IMG/VR virus record: IMGVR_UViG_3300021962_000077
Span: 1 to 64,000 of that record
DNA from: a virus
Direction: 5' to 3' (one strand)
DNA length: 64,000 nucleotides
Positions within the stretch are counted from its first letter, which is position 1; every line of letters begins with the position of its first letter. A program made the position numbers and the translations under genes. Shown here in pieces: positions 14,768 through 53,820 of this stretch. Below the pieces are notes generated by a model. The model saw nothing but the letters and a program-made list of their open reading frames with translations. It was not told the origin of the DNA and made no database searches.

Positions 14768-14794
14768 TGTTAAATGTCTCCTACATTTGGGGAA

Positions 14795-14851
14795 TGCAGG
14801 ACGACTGTAGCGACCGCCCTGATTACTACAGTGGTCCTACAAATTTATTTA
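14795..14851 (-). promoter_or_regulatory. TAAATA promoter plus long 5'-UTR hairpin of phoH
   Basis: Minus strand TAAATA at 14846-14851, then tgtaggac-c-actgtagt...gctacagt-c-gtcctgca hairpin. Confidence 0.55.
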
Positions 14852-14898
14852 ACAAAACGGGCTAAAAGTAAACTGATAGCATATAAAATTGATTGGGC

Positions 14899-14904
14899 TA
14901 AATA
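14899..14904 (+). promoter_or_regulatory. Putative late promoter TAAATA
   Basis: Upstream of the operon leading into the lysis genes. Confidence 0.5.
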
Positions 14905-14927
14905 CATGATGAAACTGCGAGATAGAA

Positions 14928-18106: not shown

Positions 18107-18116
18107 AGGAAATATT

Positions 18117-18329
18117 ATGAAAAAATTATTAGCACTATTAGCACTAACACTAGCTTCAACTGCTTTTGCAGGTGGTGAAATTAAGGAAATTTGTAAAGAT
18201 AAAGTTGACAAGGCCGGCAAACCAGTCTTAGACAAAAAGACCAAAAAGCCTGTTCAAGACTGTAAAAAAATCAAAGTTCATAAAAAGGTAGAAGGCGATA
18301 AGGTTCCAGAACCAGCCAAAAAGAAATAA
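18117..18329 (+). CDS. Small exported basic protein
   Basis: SD aagga; signal peptide MKKLLALLALTLASTAFA; two Cys; Lys-rich. Confidence 0.65.
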   Translation: MKKLLALLALTLASTAFAGGEIKEICKDKVDKAGKPVLDKKTKKPVQDCKKIKVHKKVEGDKVPEPAKKK

Positions 18330-18341
18330 TCTACCAAACTT

Positions 18342-18392
18342 TTGACAAAGCAAGGCCATGGCAGTATAATTACTGTTGTACCTTGCTTTTTT
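18342..18392 (+). promoter_or_regulatory. Consensus sigma70 promoter (TTGACA-17-TATAAT) nested in a terminator-like hairpin
   Basis: aaagcaagg...ccttgcttt arms followed by a T run; TATAAT at the hairpin apex. Confidence 0.75.
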
Positions 18393-18408
18393 AATTGTGA
18401 GATAAAAT

Positions 18409-28570: not shown

Positions 28571-29710
28571 ATGGATTTACAACCTCATCCAGACGACCAC
28601 GAAGCTAAAATGGCTCGCGCTGACCTTTTTAAACTAGCACAGTATTCATTTAAACTGTTTAAGATGATTCACGAAGATATGGAATTAGAAGGCTGGGTGC
28701 AGGCTAAGATTACCAAAGCTGCTGATTATATTGCTTCAGTATATCACTATATGGAATACGAAATGAAGTTTAGTGAGTATGGTGAAAGATTAGAACAATC
28801 TGACATGTATTCTTCTATGAGTGAAAGTCAGCAACGTGCTATTAAGCACATGTTAAGTGAAGCAAAAGAAACTATGAAAAAGTTAAATGCTGCACAGGCT
28901 AAAAAACTTAAGAAAAAAGGTAGTAAAGTTGAAGAAGCTTCTAAACCAGATTTCTTAGACATGGATAAAGATGGTGACAAGAAAGAGCCGATGAAGAAAG
29001 CTGTCAAAGACAAGAAGGTCAAAGAAGGTTTTCCAACTGTTGATGATGCTCGTAAGCGTCATGAACAAGAAAAAGGTACTGGTAAATTTGACAAGAAAGA
29101 AACTGAAAAAGGTACACAGTATACACGCAAATCTAGTACATTCACCGACGGCGGTGATGATAGTGATGTAAAAGCAGCTAAAAAGAAAGCCAAGAAAACC
29201 GACGAAGGCGTAATGGACACAGTTAAGAAAGTTGGCAAGAAAGTTGCCGGCGCTGTTAACAAAGCAGTTGGTCATGGCAGTGATGAAGACATGATTAAAG
29301 ATCTACAACGCAAGTCAGGTGCTCCCGTTACAGGCAAAAAACCTGCACCAGTCAAAGAAGCCAGCAAAAAGAAAGCTGACAAAGACTATGACGGTGACGG
29401 CAAAGTTGAAAGCGGTAAAGACGAATACTTAGGTAGTCGTATTGCTGCTGCTAAGAAGGCCGGCAAAATGGAAGAAGCTGCTAAATGTAATCACACACCA
29501 AAAGGTAAATCTTGCCCAGTACATGGACTAAAAGAATGCGGAATGACCTATGAAAGTTCCACTGGCGATTACTCAGCTAAGAAAGCGGCCGCAGGTAAAG
29601 ACATCGGCAAGCCAGGCAAGAATTTTGCTAAGATTGAAAAGTCTGCAGGTGGTGGCGAAAAAGGCAAGCGTATTGCTGGTGCAGTTCTAGCTAAATTACG
29701 CAAAGGCTAA
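28571..29710 (+). CDS. Highly charged modular putative head/core protein
   Basis: TAAATA at 28545; Lys-rich modules separated by xxE sites; DxDxDG loops DMDKDGD and DYDGDG. Confidence 0.6.
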   Translation: MDLQPHPDDHEAKMARADLFKLAQYSFKLFKMIHEDMELEGWVQAKITKAADYIASVYHYMEYEMKFSEYGERLEQSDMYSSMSESQQRAIKHMLSEAKETMKKLNAAQAKKLKKKGSKVEEASKPDFLDMDKDGDKKEPMKKAVKDKKVKEGFPTVDDARKRHEQEKGTGKFDKKETEKGTQYTRKSSTFTDGGDDSDVKAAKKKAKKTDEGVMDTVKKVGKKVAGAVNKAVGHGSDEDMIKDLQRKSGAPVTGKKPAPVKEASKKKADKDYDGDGKVESGKDEYLGSRIAAAKKAGKMEEAAKCNHTPKGKSCPVHGLKECGMTYESSTGDYSAKKAAAGKDIGKPGKNFAKIEKSAGGGEKGKRIAGAVLAKLRKG

Positions 29711-29716
29711 TTTGTA

Positions 29717-30832
29717 ATGGACATGAAGAAAATTCTACAGGCTATGGACGGTGCTTCTACAAAGCCTGTAGAAGGTGTCAATAGCATGGCTAAATTTCTT
29801 AGTGTTGTTAAAGAAGCAGAAGTAGCAGCACCGGTTTCAACACTACCTCCAGAACAATTAGAATATAATCGTCTAAGAGCACAAGTTGATACTTTAAATT
29901 TTATGCAAAGTGATAGAGCTAACAGCAATACTTTTGTAGATCAAGATCCTCAACTAGTAGTTAAACAAAATGCCATGCGAACAAAATTAGCTCAGATGGC
30001 TGCTGCATTAAAGGCCAAAGGTATAGATGCTGCCGCTGAATACGATGCTCCAGAGCCAGGTGATCAACCTGCACAACCAGTTGACCTAGCACAAAAATAT
30101 AATAGTAAAAAACCGCCTGTGCCGACTCAAGAAAATAAAACTGGCAAAATTAAACAATATTTTGAAGCTGTTCAAACAGAAGCTCAACAAGCATTTGATC
30201 AACGTCGAGCAAAGTTCAAAGAACAAGCTCGACGAATAGCACAGCGTATGCGTGAAGATGCCAAAGTTAGTGCTATAGATCCTGCTAAGAAAACTATTAC
30301 CTATACTGATCCACAAACAGGAATTTCTACCACTGTTCCGCAGGCCATGGCCAAACCAGGAGAAGGCGGACAGGTAATGATTGATAAGAATCAAGTTGAT
30401 CAAGCGGTAGGTCAAAGCCAGCCGCCAGCAATCAAAGTTGGTGATACAATTAAAATGTTAGATACTGAGTCTAGCAGTGCAAGTGTACGTATGCACAGAG
30501 CATTGCAACGCGAAAAAGAAAAGCGTGAGTTTAGTCAACGCTATGCTGAGAAACATTTCCCCATAGGTAAGAAACCTGAGCCAATTAAAGAACCAAAGAA
30601 AGACCAAGATGTAATTGAATACGGTGATACTGCCAAAGGTCAAAAGATGTTGACTAAGGTGCAGAAACGTGCCGTAGATAGAGTAGTATCTAAAAAAGCA
30701 GAAACAGATCCTAAGTATGCTAAGAAGAACGCAGATACTGCTGACCGTGCTTGGGAAAGAATGACAGACAAGGATGTAGCGGAAGGCAACGAAGATCCTT
30801 CTTGGATAAACAATCTAAGGCTTAGAAAATAA
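29717..30832 (+). CDS. Modular putative internal head protein
   Basis: 371-aa ORF, modules separated by VKE/MRE/VIE/VAE. Confidence 0.55.
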   Translation: MDMKKILQAMDGASTKPVEGVNSMAKFLSVVKEAEVAAPVSTLPPEQLEYNRLRAQVDTLNFMQSDRANSNTFVDQDPQLVVKQNAMRTKLAQMAAALKAKGIDAAAEYDAPEPGDQPAQPVDLAQKYNSKKPPVPTQENKTGKIKQYFEAVQTEAQQAFDQRRAKFKEQARRIAQRMREDAKVSAIDPAKKTITYTDPQTGISTTVPQAMAKPGEGGQVMIDKNQVDQAVGQSQPPAIKVGDTIKMLDTESSSASVRMHRALQREKEKREFSQRYAEKHFPIGKKPEPIKEPKKDQDVIEYGDTAKGQKMLTKVQKRAVDRVVSKKAETDPKYAKKNADTADRAWERMTDKDVAEGNEDPSWINNLRLRK

Positions 30833-31269
30833 TGGATGAGCAACTAATTAAAGCAATGAAGATGGCACATGCAAATACATTTGCATTCTATCTTAAAACA
30901 CATGGATTTCACTGGAATGTTGAAGGTGAAAATTTTCCTCAGTATCATACGTTCTTCGAAATGATATACAGCGAAGTATACGGATCTGTAGATAAATTTG
31001 CAGAAGAAATTCGTGCTTTAGGTTCATATGCTCCTGCAGGGTTAGGACGACTAATGGAATTAGCCGGTATTGAAGATCAACGTGAAGTAGTCGATGCTAG
31101 AATGATGTTAGAAATACTGTATCAAGATAATCAAACAGTTTTAGAAAGTGTTGGACAAGCCTACGAACTAGCAGAAAATGCTGGAGCACATGGTCTAAGT
31201 AATTTCTTAGCCGAGCGTCAAGATGCACATAAAAAACATGCTTGGATGATTAGAGCAACATTAAAGTAA
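30832..31269 (+). CDS. dps: Dps/ferritin-like DNA protection protein
   Basis: HGFHWNVEG..F..YH..FE..Y...D.FAEEIR...KHAWM. Confidence 0.92.
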   Translation: MDEQLIKAMKMAHANTFAFYLKTHGFHWNVEGENFPQYHTFFEMIYSEVYGSVDKFAEEIRALGSYAPAGLGRLMELAGIEDQREVVDARMMLEILYQDNQTVLESVGQAYELAENAGAHGLSNFLAERQDAHKKHAWMIRATLK

Positions 31270-31271
31270 AG

Positions 31272-31362
31272 GACACACTACCTTAGGACCTTATGGTTAT
31301 TAAGTGTGGGGCGGCTGCTGCCCGTAGAAAGTGATTCGCTACATGGACTACTGAGTGAGCAA
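31272..31362 (+). ncRNA. Candidate structured RNA (unassigned)
   Basis: GC-richer intergenic stretch with stems cacact/agtgtg, gacc/ggtt, gggc/gccc, gtag/ctac and a possible pseudoknot ttcgct/agtgag. Confidence 0.5.
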
Positions 31363-31381
31363 GAATTTTAAGGATTATTAA

Positions 31382-32032
31382 ATGTCTTCAATTTATAAAG
31401 ATTTAGTCGAAAGTTTTGGATACACTCCAATTATGGAAGCTGTGTCATTAGACTCTATCATGGCAGCAGTTGGGCAAGAAAAAGACGAACAAAAACGTGC
31501 GGCCGCACTAAATGATATTGCATGGAGAGAAAATCTTCCTGGACTATATGATCCTATTAGTGGTTATTTTGTTCGTAAACAAAGTATGCCTGCGGGACGC
31601 GGTGTTCAACGATACAACATTGGTGCTACTGCTAGCCGTGGGGACGACGAGGTATTGAGTAGTAAAGGATTAATTCCAGACAATGCTAAAACTACTAGTC
31701 CGCTTGGTAAGTTAGCAAATAAGATAACTGGTAAAGATAGCGATGCATACGATCGAGATATTAGAGCTCGTAGTGCTGCTGCTCAAAATCCGCCAGCAGG
31801 ACAGGCTGCACAGCCTTCATCCGCCTCTGATCAAGCCACTGCTAGTCAAACGCAGACTAGCAATTACACAGGTACTGACCAAAGAACACCTAATGCAAGA
31901 GATGCTAACACTGCTCCGCCTAAACAAGATGATTCTAAACCAACTGCTCGAGTTACAATTCCAGGACAAGGCGGTGATATAGAAGTTAAACGTAAAAGAT
32001 ATGCAGAATTACTTGCTAAAGCTAAAGGATAA
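31382..32032 (+). CDS. Hypothetical protein (putative virion protein)
   Basis: 216-aa ORF; low-complexity A/Q/T/P C-terminal half. Confidence 0.6.
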   Translation: MSSIYKDLVESFGYTPIMEAVSLDSIMAAVGQEKDEQKRAAALNDIAWRENLPGLYDPISGYFVRKQSMPAGRGVQRYNIGATASRGDDEVLSSKGLIPDNAKTTSPLGKLANKITGKDSDAYDRDIRARSAAAQNPPAGQAAQPSSASDQATASQTQTSNYTGTDQRTPNARDANTAPPKQDDSKPTARVTIPGQGGDIEVKRKRYAELLAKAKG

Positions 32033-32035
32033 AAA

Positions 32036-32809
32036 ATGAACTTTTATAAAGACCCGCTAATAGAAAAATTAAGAATAATCGAATCTCAAATCATTGGTGA
32101 AGGTTTATCTGACGACGAATTTGTAGAGTTACAAAGGCTAAGAGCCGAACTTGGTGATGACCCAGCTTCTGCTAAACTACACTCAGAAGTAGATGCAGTA
32201 GTTAAAGCAAGAGCTGCCGACTTTGAAAAGTCTGCTGATACACCAGCTGATACACCAGCTGATACACCTGCTGATACACCAGCTGATAAACCAACTGTTG
32301 AATGGCCGAAAACTAGAGACGAAATTATTGCATTCCAACGAGCAAATAACTTACAAGCTGACGGGTTGATTGGTCAAAAGACTATGGCTGCACTAATAGC
32401 TGCCGGAGCAACTCCACCGCCAGGATTTAAACCAGTCAGTAATAAAGTTAAGCCTACTGGAAAACCTCCGGGGCAAGCTGGGCAACCAACACCTACTACA
32501 CAGGCTGGAATACCTCCAGAATTATCAAGGGCTATACCTAGTCCAAAAGAAGGTGATCAGTACTGGGTTAACGGTACAAGATATGAGTTTAGAAGCAACT
32601 ATGATGGTCGACAGTTTGGAAAACCTCAATGGACTGTTGAGCATAAACCTGGTGATTTTGCATTTAAGGCAGATACAGAATGGGCTGCAAAAAATAAATT
32701 CACAGGTACCCCGGCTCAAGCAAATGCCCAGTTTATGCAGAAAACTTACCCGAAACCACAAGCAGAATCTACTGAAATAGATAGATTAAAAGAACTACTT
32801 AAATTTTAA
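32036..32809 (+). CDS. Peptidoglycan-binding-domain protein
   Basis: IIAFQRANNLQADGLIGQKTMAAL (PG_binding_1 pattern); ADTP linker repeats. Confidence 0.75.
   Translation: MNFYKDPLIEKLRIIESQIIGEGLSDDEFVELQRLRAELGDDPASAKLHSEVDAVVKARAADFEKSADTPADTPADTPADTPADKPTVEWPKTRDEIIAFQRANNLQADGLIGQKTMAALIAAGATPPPGFKPVSNKVKPTGKPPGQAGQPTPTTQAGIPPELSRAIPSPKEGDQYWVNGTRYEFRSNYDGRQFGKPQWTVEHKPGDFAFKADTEWAAKNKFTGTPAQANAQFMQKTYPKPQAESTEIDRLKELLKF
32234..32290 (+). repeat. 12-bp tandem repeat GCTGATACACC(A/T), 4 copies plus a partial
   Basis: Encodes (ADTP)4-ADK. Confidence 0.9.
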
Positions 32810-32815
32810 TCAAAT

Positions 32816-32842
32816 AAAAAGCACCCCTGGGGTGCTTTTTTA
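32816..32842. terminator. Bidirectional intrinsic terminator
   Basis: aaaaagcaccc-ctg-gggtgctttttt between convergent genes. Confidence 0.85.
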
Positions 32843-33160
32843 TTAGTGCCAATTACCTTGAAAGCAATGACGCATCTCATGTCCTAAGGTATGCATATTT
32901 GGACGCTTGCTAGTAATGATTGTACAACTATTGCCTTCCCAAAAAGAGCAGGCTTTAATAGCAAAACCAAAACCACCGTTGTTGCGCTTGCGGCTTTCTG
33001 CATCACATACTTGTTGAACATTGTCAACTGGCATCCATTTGATATTCATCGGAGTCTTTTGAACGTCACCTGCTGGAAATGATGCCGTAGGATCATCCCA
33101 ATCTGCCGATGCTGAGCCCAATTGAGCAATCAAAAAAAGTGTAAGAACAGTTTTTTTCAT
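32843..33160 (-). CDS. Small exported protein with HExxH motif
   Basis: Signal peptide; LGHEMRHC; four Cys; own sigma70 promoter and SD gagg. Confidence 0.7.
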   Translation of the reverse strand: MKKTVLTLFLIAQLGSASADWDDPTASFPAGDVQKTPMNIKWMPVDNVQQVCDAESRKRNNGGFGFAIKACSFWEGNSCTIITSKRPNMHTLGHEMRHCFQGNWH

Positions 33161-46675: not shown

Positions 46676-46678
46676 AGG

Positions 46679-46707
46679 TTGACACAACCTAAATAATCAT
46701 GTACACT
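46679..46707 (+). promoter_or_regulatory. Sigma70 promoter TTGACA-17-TACACT with internal TAAATA
   Basis: Dual promoter upstream of folE. Confidence 0.6.
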
Positions 46708-46750
46708 AGTACAACATAATGACATCCACGTCATAAACTCGGAGAATAAT

Positions 46751-47536: not shown

Positions 47537-47646
47537 TCATCACAAACTGCACAGGCGAGATTCGATTGCCTTGGGAACCAGGGCTGTTAGAATGGTTGCA
47601 GGAACACTATCCTGCCAGCCAATATAGAGTGGTAGAATTAACTTAA
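47533..47646 (+). CDS. 37-aa hypothetical protein (not in ORF track)
   Basis: atga overlap with folE stop; MIITNCTGEIRLPWEPGLLEWLQEHYPASQYRVVELT. Confidence 0.5.
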   Translation: MIITNCTGEIRLPWEPGLLEWLQEHYPASQYRVVELT

Positions 47647-47657
47647 AGGAAAACAAA

Positions 47658-52555: not shown

Positions 52556-52575
52556 AATTTTTGGCTAACAAGCTG

Positions 52576-52604
52576 TTGACAGAATAGAATTATTGTCATA
52601 TAAT
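52576..52604 (+). promoter_or_regulatory. Sigma70 promoter TTGACA-17-TATAAT
   Basis: Perfect consensus. Confidence 0.8.
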
Positions 52605-52647
52605 ACTAGGACAGTGATAGCAATTTTTTTAACAAGATAGGAATTTT

Positions 52648-53745: not shown

Positions 53746-53762
53746 TCTAAAAATTATATCAT

Positions 53763-53791
53763 TTGACACCTCCTTCGGGAGGTGTTATAAT
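53763..53791 (+). promoter_or_regulatory. Sigma70 promoter whose spacer is a C(UUCG)G hairpin
   Basis: TTGACA-cctccttcgggaggtgt-TATAAT; stem acacctcc/ggaggtgt. Confidence 0.75.
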
Positions 53792-53820
53792 ATATACATA
53801 CAGTAAACGAAGGAACTAAA

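What the first reader, a model, noticed from the sequence alone, without database searches (positions are those of the whole stretch)
31272..31362. Compact multi-stem, possibly pseudoknotted RNA between dps and the next gene
Seen: one of few long intergenic gaps (~110 nt) and visibly GC-richer than its surroundings. P1 cacact(31274-79)/agtgtg(31303-08) encloses ccttag and hairpin gacc-ttat-ggtt; P2 gggc/gccc with loop ggctgct; P3 gtag/ctac encloses attcgct, which can pair with the 3' tail agtgag (31354-59). It has no U-tract and no tRNA cloverleaf. Inference: an unassigned ribozyme, riboswitch-like element or small RNA.
Basis: partly seen in the sequence, partly recalled or inferred. Interest (0 to 1): 0.7.

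Follow-up and report, generated by a model that had tools for sequence, protein, structure and literature searches.

The report
Phage RNA antisense to 23S rRNA
The gap after the phage's dps-like gene holds a real, folded, pseudoknotted small RNA of a large uncatalogued family from giant lake phages, and its exposed loops are the base-pairing mirror image of a core stretch of bacterial 23S ribosomal RNA, so the phage may grip host ribosomal RNA directly.

Summary
Window 31266-31365 (+) matches a covariance model I built at 89 bits. Helices P2, P3 and the inner P3 hairpin covary strongly. Its P3 partner and its pseudoknot partner are wrong: GUAG 31324-27 pairs with CUAC 31348-51, and the 3' tail pairs with the P2 loop. 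There is no Rfam, tRNA or tmRNA match. The element follows a co-oriented ORF's stop codon by 0-6 nt in 65 of 85 loci, next to unrelated genes. The CM finds one strong copy in three of four complete 347-525 kb genomes and two in the fourth. Loop L1 is the exact antisense of E. coli 23S nt 1921-1933, and the P3 loop of 1930-1937. Best reading: an RNA that pairs with host 23S rRNA at helix 69-70; this is inferred and no expression data exist. Earlier AI notes of this scan reached the same reading on other DNA. My literature searches found nothing in print.

The parts
30832..31269 (+). Upstream ORF: Dps/ferritin-like protein of 145 aa. Its TAA stop (31267-31269) lies 4 nt before P1.
   Evidence: Pfam PF00210, E 3.1e-24; ORF list.
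31266..31365 (+). The whole RNA element as matched by covariance model R1.
   Evidence: 89 bits, E 4e-24; the only strong match in the 73.6-kb record.
31274..31278 (+). P1 5' strand CACAC. It pairs with 31304-31308 (GUGUG); U31279-A31303 can extend the helix.
   Evidence: Paired in 66 of 67 sequences (A3) and 61 of 61 (A4), but essentially invariant, so it carries no covariation support.
31278..31290 (+). L1, CUACCUUAGGACC. It is single-stranded inside P1 and is the exact antisense of E. coli 23S rRNA nt 1921-1933.
   Evidence: In a set picked without regard to L1, 121 of 128 variants keep at least 11 nt of antisense to 23S within 1917-1933.
31287..31298 (+). P1a hairpin, GACC-UUAU-GGUU. It is variable and dispensable. 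Together with L1 it aligns to the antisense of 23S helix 69 plus linker.
   Evidence: 50 of 59 distinct segments form a hairpin of 3 bp or more, with many different stems; 17 of 111 variants lack it. The window aligns 21 of 23 positions with one gap, reached by 0 of 300 shuffles.
31304..31308 (+). P1 3' strand GUGUG.
31309..31323 (+). P2 hairpin: GGGC (31309-12) pairs with GCCC (31320-23). Its loop L2, GGCUGCU (31313-19), forms the pseudoknot. 31311-31320 is also a 10-nt antisense match to 16S nt 519-528; this match is weak evidence.
   Evidence: Three P2 pairs covary, e.g. GC 46, CG 13, AU 5. 16S match. By chance about 0.8 ten-mer matches are expected per query.
31324..31327 (+). P3 outer stem 5' strand GUAG. 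It pairs with 31348-31351 (CUAC).
   Evidence: All four pairs covary. The window-versus-L003 substitutions at 31326, 31349 and 31350 are compensatory.
31331..31344 (+). Inner P3 hairpin: GUG (31331-33) pairs with CAU (31342-44). Loop L3 is AUUCGCUA. UUCGCUAC (31335-42) is antisense to 23S nt 1930-1937.
   Evidence: CM alignment; the stem covaries. 85 of 128 variants have at least 8 nt of antisense to 23S within 1927-1937.
31348..31351 (+). P3 outer stem 3' strand CUAC.
31354..31361 (+). Conserved 3' tail AGUGAGCA. Pseudoknot pairs: A31358-U31316, G31359-C31315, C31360-G31314.
   Evidence: Correlated changes in loop and tail in L141, L179, L117, L214 and the L114 group.
31382..32032 (+). Downstream ORF of 216 aa with no family hit; its SD AAGGA is at 31370-74. 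This is a neighbour, not part of the RNA.

Best explanation
Window 31266-31365 (+) encodes one member of a large, uncatalogued family of structured RNAs of about 100 nt from T4-like giant phages.

Fold. Three helices meet with no linkers. P1 carries a large internal loop L1 and an optional hairpin P1a. P2 has the 7-nt loop L2. P3 carries an inner hairpin with loop L3. The 3' tail folds back onto L2 as a pseudoknot.

Expression. The RNA appears to be read through from the upstream gene, because it begins 0-6 nt after that gene's stop codon. It is not tied to any particular neighbouring gene.

Most likely mode of action. L1 and L3 are antisense to one contiguous, universally conserved stretch of 23S rRNA: the 3' strand of helix 69, the linker, and the 5' strand of helix 70 (E. 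coli nt about 1920-1937). The RNA would therefore base-pair with host large-subunit rRNA, either in free 50S subunits or in assembly intermediates. That would alter subunit joining or ribosome maturation.

Shown: family, fold, covariation, strand, genomic setting, complementarity. Inferred: that it pairs with rRNA in the cell, and what follows from that.
For: Family.
- R1 finds exactly one match in 100 of 100 loci from the 16-mer scan (58-111 bits).
- It finds one match in 80 of 80 new loci from a second scan that did not use L1 (36-106 bits).
- It finds none above 13 bits in 13 of 13 cellular-genome 16-mer hits.

Fold.
- On alignment A3, 90.4% of cells are paired against 75.8% in shuffles, and 247 cells show a change on both sides against a shuffle mean of 87 (0 of 500 shuffles reach either value). 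Versions with partners slid by 1-3 columns give 24-47% paired.
- The result repeats on A4 and A5.

Strand.
- In P2 and P3 there are 29 G-U/U-G cells against 5 A-C/C-A cells.
- 85 of 86 upstream ORFs are co-oriented with the element.

Pseudoknot.
- L141: loop C to G with tail G to C.
- L179: loop U to C with tail A to G.
- L117: loop GAACCC with tail GGGUUC.
- L214: loop CCCUUGA with tail UCAAGGG.

Autonomy.
- Upstream genes fall into 21 clusters and downstream genes into 33, among 86 each.
- The CM finds 1, 2, 1 and 1 strong copies in four complete genomes of 347-525 kb.

rRNA complementarity, against E. coli rrnH fetched as L232.
- L1 matches 13 nt, 23S 1921-1933; two variants match 15 nt.
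- 13 of 5000 dinucleotide shuffles reach 13 nt. 5 of 5000 also have a second match of 10 nt or more.
- Every match of 12 nt or more in the family is antisense; the longest sense match is 11 nt, in 1 of 72 variants.
- In the L1-unbiased set, 121 of 128 variants keep at least 11 nt at 1917-1933.
- The P3 loop's best duplex site in all three rRNAs is 23S 1928, next to the L1 site.
- A rare alternative P3 loop matches 10-11 nt at 1966-1977. A local fold of the rRNA pairs that strand with the 1930s strand.
- L1 plus P1a aligns to the antisense of helix 69 plus linker over 23-26 nt in 7 of 7 variants that were aligned (0 of 300 shuffles reach the score).
Against: - No expression, RNA ends or binding data exist. 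No RNA run was listed, and the 5' and 3' ends are unknown.
- The rRNA target is invariant, so no covariation between RNA and target can be obtained. The complementarity could be a relic of origin from captured rDNA.
- 41 of 128 variants have P3 loops (GGAGUCGUGCC or GGCCGGGAAUCC types) with no antisense match of 7 nt or more in 23S 1900-1990. Their duplex energies are no better than shuffles.
- L1 and L3 overlap by 4 nt on the target in the window's class.
- In mature ribosomes helix 69 and helix 70 are folded (own knowledge), so pairing needs an open state.
- E. coli rRNA was used as a stand-in; the host is unknown.
- The rRNA match was found after the fact, so the p-values are post hoc.
- In the window nothing shows that the RNA is released from the polycistronic transcript.
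Confidence: 0.5

Rival explanations
1. The fold is functional, but the rRNA antisense is only a relic of its origin as a captured, inverted rDNA piece. The conserved loops would now be read by a protein (phage or host) or by another RNA, and the element would work as a protein-binding or scaffolding ncRNA.
For: - L2, which also looks antisense to 16S 517-528, is replaced outright in L117 and L214 while its pairing with the tail is kept. Intramolecular structure is therefore what selection keeps there.
- 41 of 128 variants carry P3 loops without rRNA complementarity.
- P1 and the tail are nearly invariant without any rRNA explanation.
Against: - Three L1 classes with different flanks (13, 12 and 15 nt) all keep complementarity to the same 23S site. 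Some P3 loops extend by following the rRNA sequence (UUCGCUACCU, UCGCUACCUU).
- No conserved neighbouring protein gene was found.
Confidence: 0.22
2. It is a self-cleaving ribozyme or RNA-processing signal of a new class that cuts the polycistronic transcript just after the upstream stop codon.
For: - It has a compact pseudoknotted three-way junction with many invariant nucleotides.
- It starts 0-6 nt after a stop codon in 65 of 85 loci.
- Known small ribozymes are common in phage DNA (own knowledge).
Against: - No match to any Rfam ribozyme model at E up to 10 (locus) or up to 1 (14 loci).
- The hammerhead core word is found in 0 of 136 variants.
- The invariant nucleotides lie in hairpin loops rather than at the junction.
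- There are only one or two copies per genome.
Confidence: 0.08
3. It is a cis-acting element of a flanking gene: a riboswitch or translational operator of the next gene, or a stop-codon recoding or termination-reinitiation signal of the upstream gene.
For: - In the window and in 10 of 20 diverged loci it lies upstream of homologues of the same gene.
- It lies directly after a stop codon.
Against: - Flanking genes are unrelated across the family: 21 and 33 clusters.
- The next ORF is on the other strand in 18 of 90 contexts.
- A TAAATA box lies between the element and the next gene in 39 of 80 loci.
- The stop-to-P1 spacing is not frame-constant (0, 1, 3, 4, 5 or 6 nt).
- The read-through frame is open for 33 codons in the window but 19 in L038 (read by eye).
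- The 13-aa mini-ORF in the window has no AUG in L100 and lies in a different frame in L096.
Confidence: 0.07
4. It is a 3'-end structure that stabilises or terminates the upstream transcript, for example a nuclease-blocking fold like viral xrRNAs.
For: - It is always downstream of a co-oriented ORF.
- It is followed by an intrinsic terminator in some loci (L122, L141) or by the next gene's own promoter-like box.
- A three-way junction with a loop-to-tail pseudoknot recalls xrRNA topology (own knowledge).
Against: - With one or two copies per 350-525 kb genome, it is not a general terminator or stabiliser.
- The upstream genes are unrelated.
- This reading does not explain loop sequences conserved far beyond what a fold needs.
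Confidence: 0.07

Closest known systems
Loop-presenting antisense RNAs (CopA/CopT of plasmid R1, RNA I/RNA II of ColE1, Sok/hok); own knowledge
   Same: Recognition nucleotides are displayed in the loops of stable hairpins. A hairpin (P1a) that mirrors a target hairpin (helix 69) suggests a kissing start followed by a longer duplex.
   Different: Those RNAs are encoded opposite their target and are fully complementary to an mRNA or primer of the same replicon. Here the proposed target is host rRNA, complementarity is 9-15 nt plus 8-10 nt in two loops, and the RNA has a pseudoknotted three-way junction.
3'-UTR-derived base-pairing small RNAs (CpxQ, SroC, DapZ type); own knowledge
   Same: The element starts right after the stop codon of a co-oriented gene, has no promoter of its own in most loci, and some loci end in an intrinsic terminator.
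   Different: Those sRNAs target mRNAs, usually with Hfq, and share the mRNA's terminator. Here most copies are followed within 10-40 nt by the next gene, and the conserved loops match rRNA.
Eukaryotic and archaeal snoRNA guides (box C/D, H/ACA); own knowledge
   Same: Short antisense elements to the conserved core of rRNA; a bipartite hold on one contiguous rRNA stretch.
   Different: The C-box word is found in 0 of 136 variants and a terminal ACA in 0 of 136. No guide-RNA proteins are known in bacteria or seen here. The architecture is different.
Viral cis elements that pair with rRNA (calicivirus TURBS with 18S; HCV IRES IIId with 18S; T7 epsilon); own knowledge
   Same: A virus uses Watson-Crick pairing with ribosomal RNA.
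   Different: Those elements lie inside mRNAs, act in cis on translation of that mRNA, and pair with small-subunit rRNA. This element is gene-independent and matches large-subunit rRNA.
PA5oct-type element of cultured Pseudomonas jumbo phages (MK797984 about 115474-115600; identical in Paride and 9 other records)
   Same: It starts right after a stop codon, and has CCUUAGGACCG followed by a hairpin and then a GUG-AUUCGCUAC-CAC hairpin.
   Different: It scores only 16.4 bits (E 0.036) with R1. It has no GGCUGCU loop or GUGAGCA tail and ends in its own terminator. It is not among the four ncRNAs listed for PA5oct (PMC7318152, passages read). Homology is likely but not proven.

Membership tests
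Any Rfam 15 family (including twister, twister-sister, hammerhead, HDV-like, hatchet and pistol ribozymes, all riboswitches, SRP, 6S, Y RNA) | Score against the family covariance model | tested here: not met
   There were 0 matches at gathering score in the 64-kb window and 0 at E up to 10 in 31150-31500. In 14 further loci no match overlapped the element at E up to 1.
tRNA / tmRNA / tRNA-like | Cloverleaf or tmRNA fold detectable by ARAGORN | tested here: not met
   0 genes in the window and 0 in 73 variants with flanks. Only 1 of 200 loci has any tRNA or tmRNA nearby.
Riboswitch / cis-regulatory leader | Consistent association with the 5' end of functionally related genes | tested here: not met
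   Downstream genes fall into 33 clusters among 86; 18 of 90 contexts have the next ORF on the opposite strand; a TAAATA box intervenes in 39 of 80 loci.
Riboswitch / cis-regulatory leader | Expression platform (terminator or SD-sequestering helix overlapping the aptamer) | tested here: not met
   No terminator-like site lies in the gap. Where terminators follow (L122, L141) they are separate hairpins 12-20 nt downstream.
Intrinsic terminator | GC-rich hairpin followed by a U tract | tested here: not met
   The scan of 30000-33000 finds only the site at 32816-32840.
Self-cleaving ribozyme (new class) | Site-specific self-scission | not testable with these tools
   This needs an in vitro transcript. 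Only negative model matches are available.
Trans-acting antisense RNA against rRNA (proposed kind) | Conserved single-stranded segments complementary to the target | tested here: met
   L1 matches 13 nt and L3 8 nt of E. coli 23S 1921-1937. 121 of 128 and 85 of 128 variants keep these matches. 13 of 5000 shuffles reach 13 nt.
Trans-acting antisense RNA against rRNA (proposed kind) | Physical pairing with the target in the cell, and an effect on it | not testable with these tools
   No RNA run was listed and no binding data exist.
3'-UTR-derived sRNA | Position directly after a co-oriented ORF, with no promoter of its own | tested here: met
   85 of 86 upstream ORFs are co-oriented; 65 of 85 end 0-6 nt before P1. 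TAAATA occurs upstream in only 7 of 80 loci. No sigma-70-like site lies in the window's gap.
3'-UTR-derived sRNA | A stable processed RNA species with defined ends | not testable with these tools
   No transcript data.
Box C/D or H/ACA guide RNA | Conserved box motifs (words recalled from memory) | tested here: not met
   The C-box word occurs in 0 of 136 variants and an ACA three nt from the modelled end in 0 of 136. CUGA occurs in 41 of 136 and is not conserved.

The most novel reading that the evidence does not exclude
The RNA is a molecular clamp or guide for the decoding-centre face of the ribosome. L1 and L3 would hold 23S helix 69-70 while L2, once freed from the tail pseudoknot, holds the 16S 530 loop (10-11 nt antisense; its best duplex site in all three rRNAs is 16S 517). 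The phage would thereby tie up or re-programme host ribosomal subunits. Alternatively, it would guide a phage enzyme to these rRNA sites, which would make it a snoRNA-like system in the bacterial world.
Probability: 0.12. Interest if true: 0.97.

Novelty: categorically new. Interest (0 to 1): 0.86.

Why it matters
If the reading holds, giant phages carry a dedicated folded RNA that recognises the most conserved part of the large-subunit rRNA by base pairing. That part is the helix 69-70 region, which forms the central bridge between the ribosomal subunits (own knowledge). Phages are known to retool translation with proteins, tRNAs and tmRNAs. I found no phage or bacterial RNA in print that targets rRNA itself.

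The target stretch is identical in E. coli, so the idea can be tested at once with standard ribosomes. The fold would also be a new RNA family, present on at least 180 viral contigs, for databases and structure work. A likely distant relative in the cultured PA5oct and Paride phages offers a genetic system. Even if the rRNA idea fails, this is a widespread, strongly covarying, pseudoknotted RNA of unknown function.

Tried and rejected
- Thermodynamic test. The gap folds no better than shuffles on either strand, so energy alone would have dismissed a real RNA.
- Repeats in the record. The element is unique in the 73.6-kb record. One 11-nt word at 32881-32891 is complementary to L1; about 0.035 such words are expected by chance. 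I did not follow it further.
- Cultured phages. blastn of the window element and of a class II variant against 50,697 phage records gave only chance-level hits. The Microcystis phage MaAM05 hit gave no CM match.
- Mini-ORF MVIKCGAAAARRK. Rejected: L100 has no AUG and the frame differs in L096.
- Stop-codon read-through. Rejected: the spacing is not frame-constant and the extension is not conserved.
- tRNA cluster idea. Rejected.
- Minus-strand RNA that mimics rRNA. Rejected on the G-U versus A-C counts and on gene orientation.
- rRNA complementarity of P3 loop types B and C. Not better than shuffles.
- The 16S 337-345 and 350-357 matches. They hold only for some variants or rest on covarying stem bases, so I treat them as chance.
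- 5S rRNA 9-mers. Chance level.
- RNA evidence. No RNA holder was listed for window 29700-32900.
- Control rRNA loci. The LSU family search returned no loci for the control genomes.
- Supplementary tables of PMC10690425 and PMC7318152 were not open. The former's list of candidate viral RNAs could contain this motif.
- Literature. Four full-text searches and passages of PMC10690425 and PMC7318152 gave no description of such an RNA. Other papers were seen only in search listings.
Full report
**The locus.** The window belongs to an IMG/VR virus record of 73,584 bases that is judged 21% complete. The phage is T4-like: it has a family-B DNA polymerase (phrog_262, E 2.5e-200) and a baseplate-wedge connector. 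The gap 31270-31381 lies between a Dps/ferritin-like gene (30832-31269; Pfam PF00210, E 3.1e-24) and a 216-aa ORF without any family hit (31382-32032). GC of the core is 49% against 37% for the record. The gap has no tRNA, no terminator-like site and no sigma-70-like promoter. No Rfam family matches at gathering score in the window, or at E up to 10 in 31150-31500. Folding energy is not better than that of shuffles (z = -0.51 and -0.06).

**Close relatives.**
- Of 28 viral contigs that encode a Dps relative, 5 (93-94% protein identity) carry the gap and the element. The other 23 (56% identity or less) do not.
- Of 13 metagenome loci that I read, 5 carry it, in two sequence versions.
- Against the nearest relatives the flanks are 79-85% identical. 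The 112-nt gap has only 4 differences. The longest perfect run of the 1.2-kb alignment (83 nt) covers the end of dps and the first 56 nt of the gap.
- Three of the four differences (31326, 31349, 31350) turn GUAG/CUAC into GUGG/CCGC. They therefore keep a stem between 31324-27 and 31348-51.

**The family.**
- Among 20 diverged loci, 10 have the element directly upstream of the homologous gene, although the gene before it is usually not dps.
These yielded 73 distinct variants.
- A second scan used only the P1 3' strand, the P2 loop and the tail.
- A covariance model built from 67 sequences (R1) finds exactly one match in 100 of 100 loci of the first scan. It finds one match in 80 of 80 new loci of the second scan.
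- It finds nothing above 13 bits in the 13 cellular-genome contigs that hold the 16-mer.
- In 71 other sources around Dps or downstream-gene homologues, only the window and L100 match.
- No cultured phage holds this subfamily.

**Structure.** On alignment A3 with my structure, 90.4% of cells pair, against 75.8% in shuffles and 24-47% when partners are slid. 247 cells show changes on both sides against a shuffle mean of 87 (0 of 500 shuffles reach this). The result repeats on the model-fitted alignments A4 (61 distinct rows) and A5 (79 distinct rows). These two alignments lean towards the structure by construction.
- P2, outer P3 and inner P3 each covary at three or four pairs.
- P1 (CACAC/GUGUG) is nearly invariant, so it is supported only by its constant complementarity.
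- P1a is a variable hairpin. 50 of 59 distinct segments fold, with many different stems, and 17 of 111 variants lack it.
- The RNA strand is the + strand. In P2 and P3 there are 29 G-U/U-G cells against 5 A-C/C-A cells. The G-U pair in P1a is present in 60 of 60 rows.

**Pseudoknot.** The P2 loop GGCUGCU and the tail AGUGAGCA can form GCU/AGC. Five lineages change both partners together:
- L141: loop C to G, tail G to C.
- L179: loop U to C, tail A to G.
- L117: loop GAACCC, tail GGGUUC.
- L214: loop CCCUUGA, tail UCAAGGG.
- The L114 group: loop G to A, tail A to U, which fits a register with one bulged base.

130 of 136 variants keep the tail but only 87 of 136 have that loop.

**Genomic setting.**
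- In 90 distinct contexts the upstream ORF is co-oriented in 85 of the 86 cases that have one. It ends 0-6 nt before P1 in 65 of 85.
- The next ORF is co-oriented in 68 contexts, on the other strand in 18 and absent in 4.
- Upstream proteins form 21 clusters, of which Dps-like is the largest with 21 of 86. Downstream proteins form 33 clusters.
- A TAAATA box lies 0-31 nt after the tail in 39 of 80 loci and directly abuts it in 17. It lies within 80 nt upstream in only 7 of 80. From memory, this box is the core of the T4 late promoter.
- The window itself has no such box.
- The CM finds 1, 2, 1 and 1 strong copies in four complete genomes of 347-525 kb. The second copy in G002 is a diverged paralogue, again placed just after a stop codon.
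- The element is therefore an autonomous unit read through from whatever gene precedes it. It is not the leader of the next gene.

**Ribosomal RNA.** I noticed from memory that the invariant loop looked like the complement of 23S rRNA. I checked this only on tool-derived sequence, E. coli rrnH fetched as L232.
- L1 (CUACCUUAGGACC, 31278-90) is the exact antisense of 23S 1921-1933. Two variants reach 15 nt.
- The common P3 loop (UUCGCUAC, 31335-42) is antisense to 1930-1937.
- A rare alternative P3 loop is antisense to 1966-1977 over 10-11 nt. A local fold of the rRNA pairs that strand with the 1930s strand.
- Every match of 12 nt or more in the family is antisense. The longest sense match is 11 nt, in 1 of 72 variants.
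- 13 of 5000 dinucleotide shuffles of the window element reach 13 nt, and 5 of 5000 also have a second match of 10 nt or more.
- L1 was part of the first search pattern, so I judged its conservation on the second set. There, 121 of 128 distinct variants keep at least 11 nt of antisense, all within 23S 1917-1933. 85 of 128 have at least 8 nt of antisense at 1927-1937 in P3. 41 have none.
- L1 plus P1a aligns with the antisense of helix 69 plus linker over 23-26 nt in 7 of 7 variants aligned. The window aligns at 21 of 23 positions, and 0 of 300 shuffles reach the scores. The 5' domain therefore looks like an inverted, shortened copy of this rRNA region.
- The P2 loop with its closing pair is also antisense to 16S 517-528 over 10-11 nt, and this is its best duplex site in all three rRNAs (2 of 60 shuffles as good). 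However, such a match is expected 0.2-0.8 times per query by chance. L117 and L214 also replace this loop while keeping the pseudoknot. I rate this link as weak.

**Reading.**
- Shown: a large family, a covarying pseudoknotted fold, the strand, independence from neighbouring genes, and conserved complementarity of two loops to one contiguous stretch of 23S rRNA.
- Inferred: the RNA pairs with host 23S rRNA at helix 69-70, in free 50S subunits or in assembly intermediates, and thereby affects subunit joining or maturation.
- From own knowledge, this stretch is among the most conserved in 23S, and helix 69 forms the central intersubunit bridge. I did not test its conservation across bacteria here.
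- The direction of any effect is unknown.
- Against the reading: there are no transcript or binding data. One third of the variants have P3 loops without rRNA complementarity. The target is folded in mature ribosomes. An invariant target gives no covariation test. The match was found post hoc.

**Known things and earlier notes.**
- Four full-text searches found no description of such an RNA. Passages of PMC10690425 and PMC7318152 gave none either. The supplements were closed, and those of PMC10690425 could list the motif among its candidates.
- Earlier AI notes of this scan, on other genomes, reach the same 'antisense to 23S helix 69-70' reading for related RNAs. Several first-stage notes describe copies of this same family. 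These notes are leads, not evidence.
- One note named PA5oct and Paride. I checked this. PA5oct has a weak R1 match (16.4 bits, E 0.036) right after a stop codon. It carries CCUUAGGACCG followed by a hairpin, a GUG-AUUCGCUAC-CAC hairpin and its own terminator. The stretch is identical in 9 records and 99.2% identical in 2 more, Paride among the identical ones. It is not among the four ncRNAs reported for PA5oct. I regard it as a likely distant relative, not as a member of this subfamily.

**Verdict.** The finding is real and its anatomy needs correction. It belongs to an uncatalogued RNA family whose conserved loops mirror 23S rRNA. The mechanism is a well-founded inference at about even odds, and it can be tested directly with E. 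coli ribosomes.

Noticed in passing
window 14768-14927 and 47537-47657: Two other long, relatively GC-rich gaps with visible inverted repeats. They share no sequence with this element.
   Followed up: no
window 18107-18408, 46676-46750, 52556-52647, 53746-53820: Gaps with near-consensus sigma-70-type promoters (TTGACA, about 17 nt, TATAAT). The phage probably uses host RNA polymerase for part of its programme.
   Followed up: no
window 32881-32891: An 11-nt word complementary to L1 lies inside the minus-strand ORF 32843-33160 (metalloprotease-like HExxH protein). About 0.035 such words are expected by chance in the record.
   Followed up: partly
window 32816-32840: A perfect 11-bp hairpin flanked by A and T runs lies between convergent genes. 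It is probably a two-way terminator that ends the transcription unit holding the element.
   Followed up: no
window 31382-32809; L092, L096, L101; L002: The 216-aa ORF shares only its N-terminal domain with proteins of 545-854 aa in relatives. The next ORF (257 aa, peptidoglycan-binding domain, ADTP repeats) resembles a further part of a fused 418-aa protein in L002. The gene may be split or shortened here.
   Followed up: partly
L129 1-261 (-); L277 3994-4372 and 4617-4690: Phage contigs of this family encode tmRNA (beta/permuted type, 107-110 bits). In one case ARAGORN also calls a tRNA with a Pyl anticodon. The tmRNA type may hint at betaproteobacterial hosts.
   Followed up: no
G002:C1:108411-108510 (-) = L330: The 525-kb phage genome holds a second, diverged copy of the element (56.6 bits) with a shorter P1. 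It again follows a stop codon and precedes a TATAAATA box.
   Followed up: partly
MK797984 115474 to about 115600 (L328 1513-1640): PA5oct, Paride and 9 other cultured Pseudomonas jumbo-phage records carry an unannotated element with the same L1 core and AUUCGCUAC hairpin plus its own terminator. Part of it is annotated as the end of a hypothetical protein.
   Followed up: partly
L157 2539-2651 (-): A sub-threshold Rfam hit (Atu_At1 sRNA, 43.5 bits against gathering score 60) lies directly beside the element on the other strand.
   Followed up: no
window 31281-31287: The L1 core CCUUAGG is a near-palindrome (6 of 7 positions self-complementary), so two copies of the RNA could kiss through L1. 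This follows from the rRNA sequence and was not tested.
   Followed up: no
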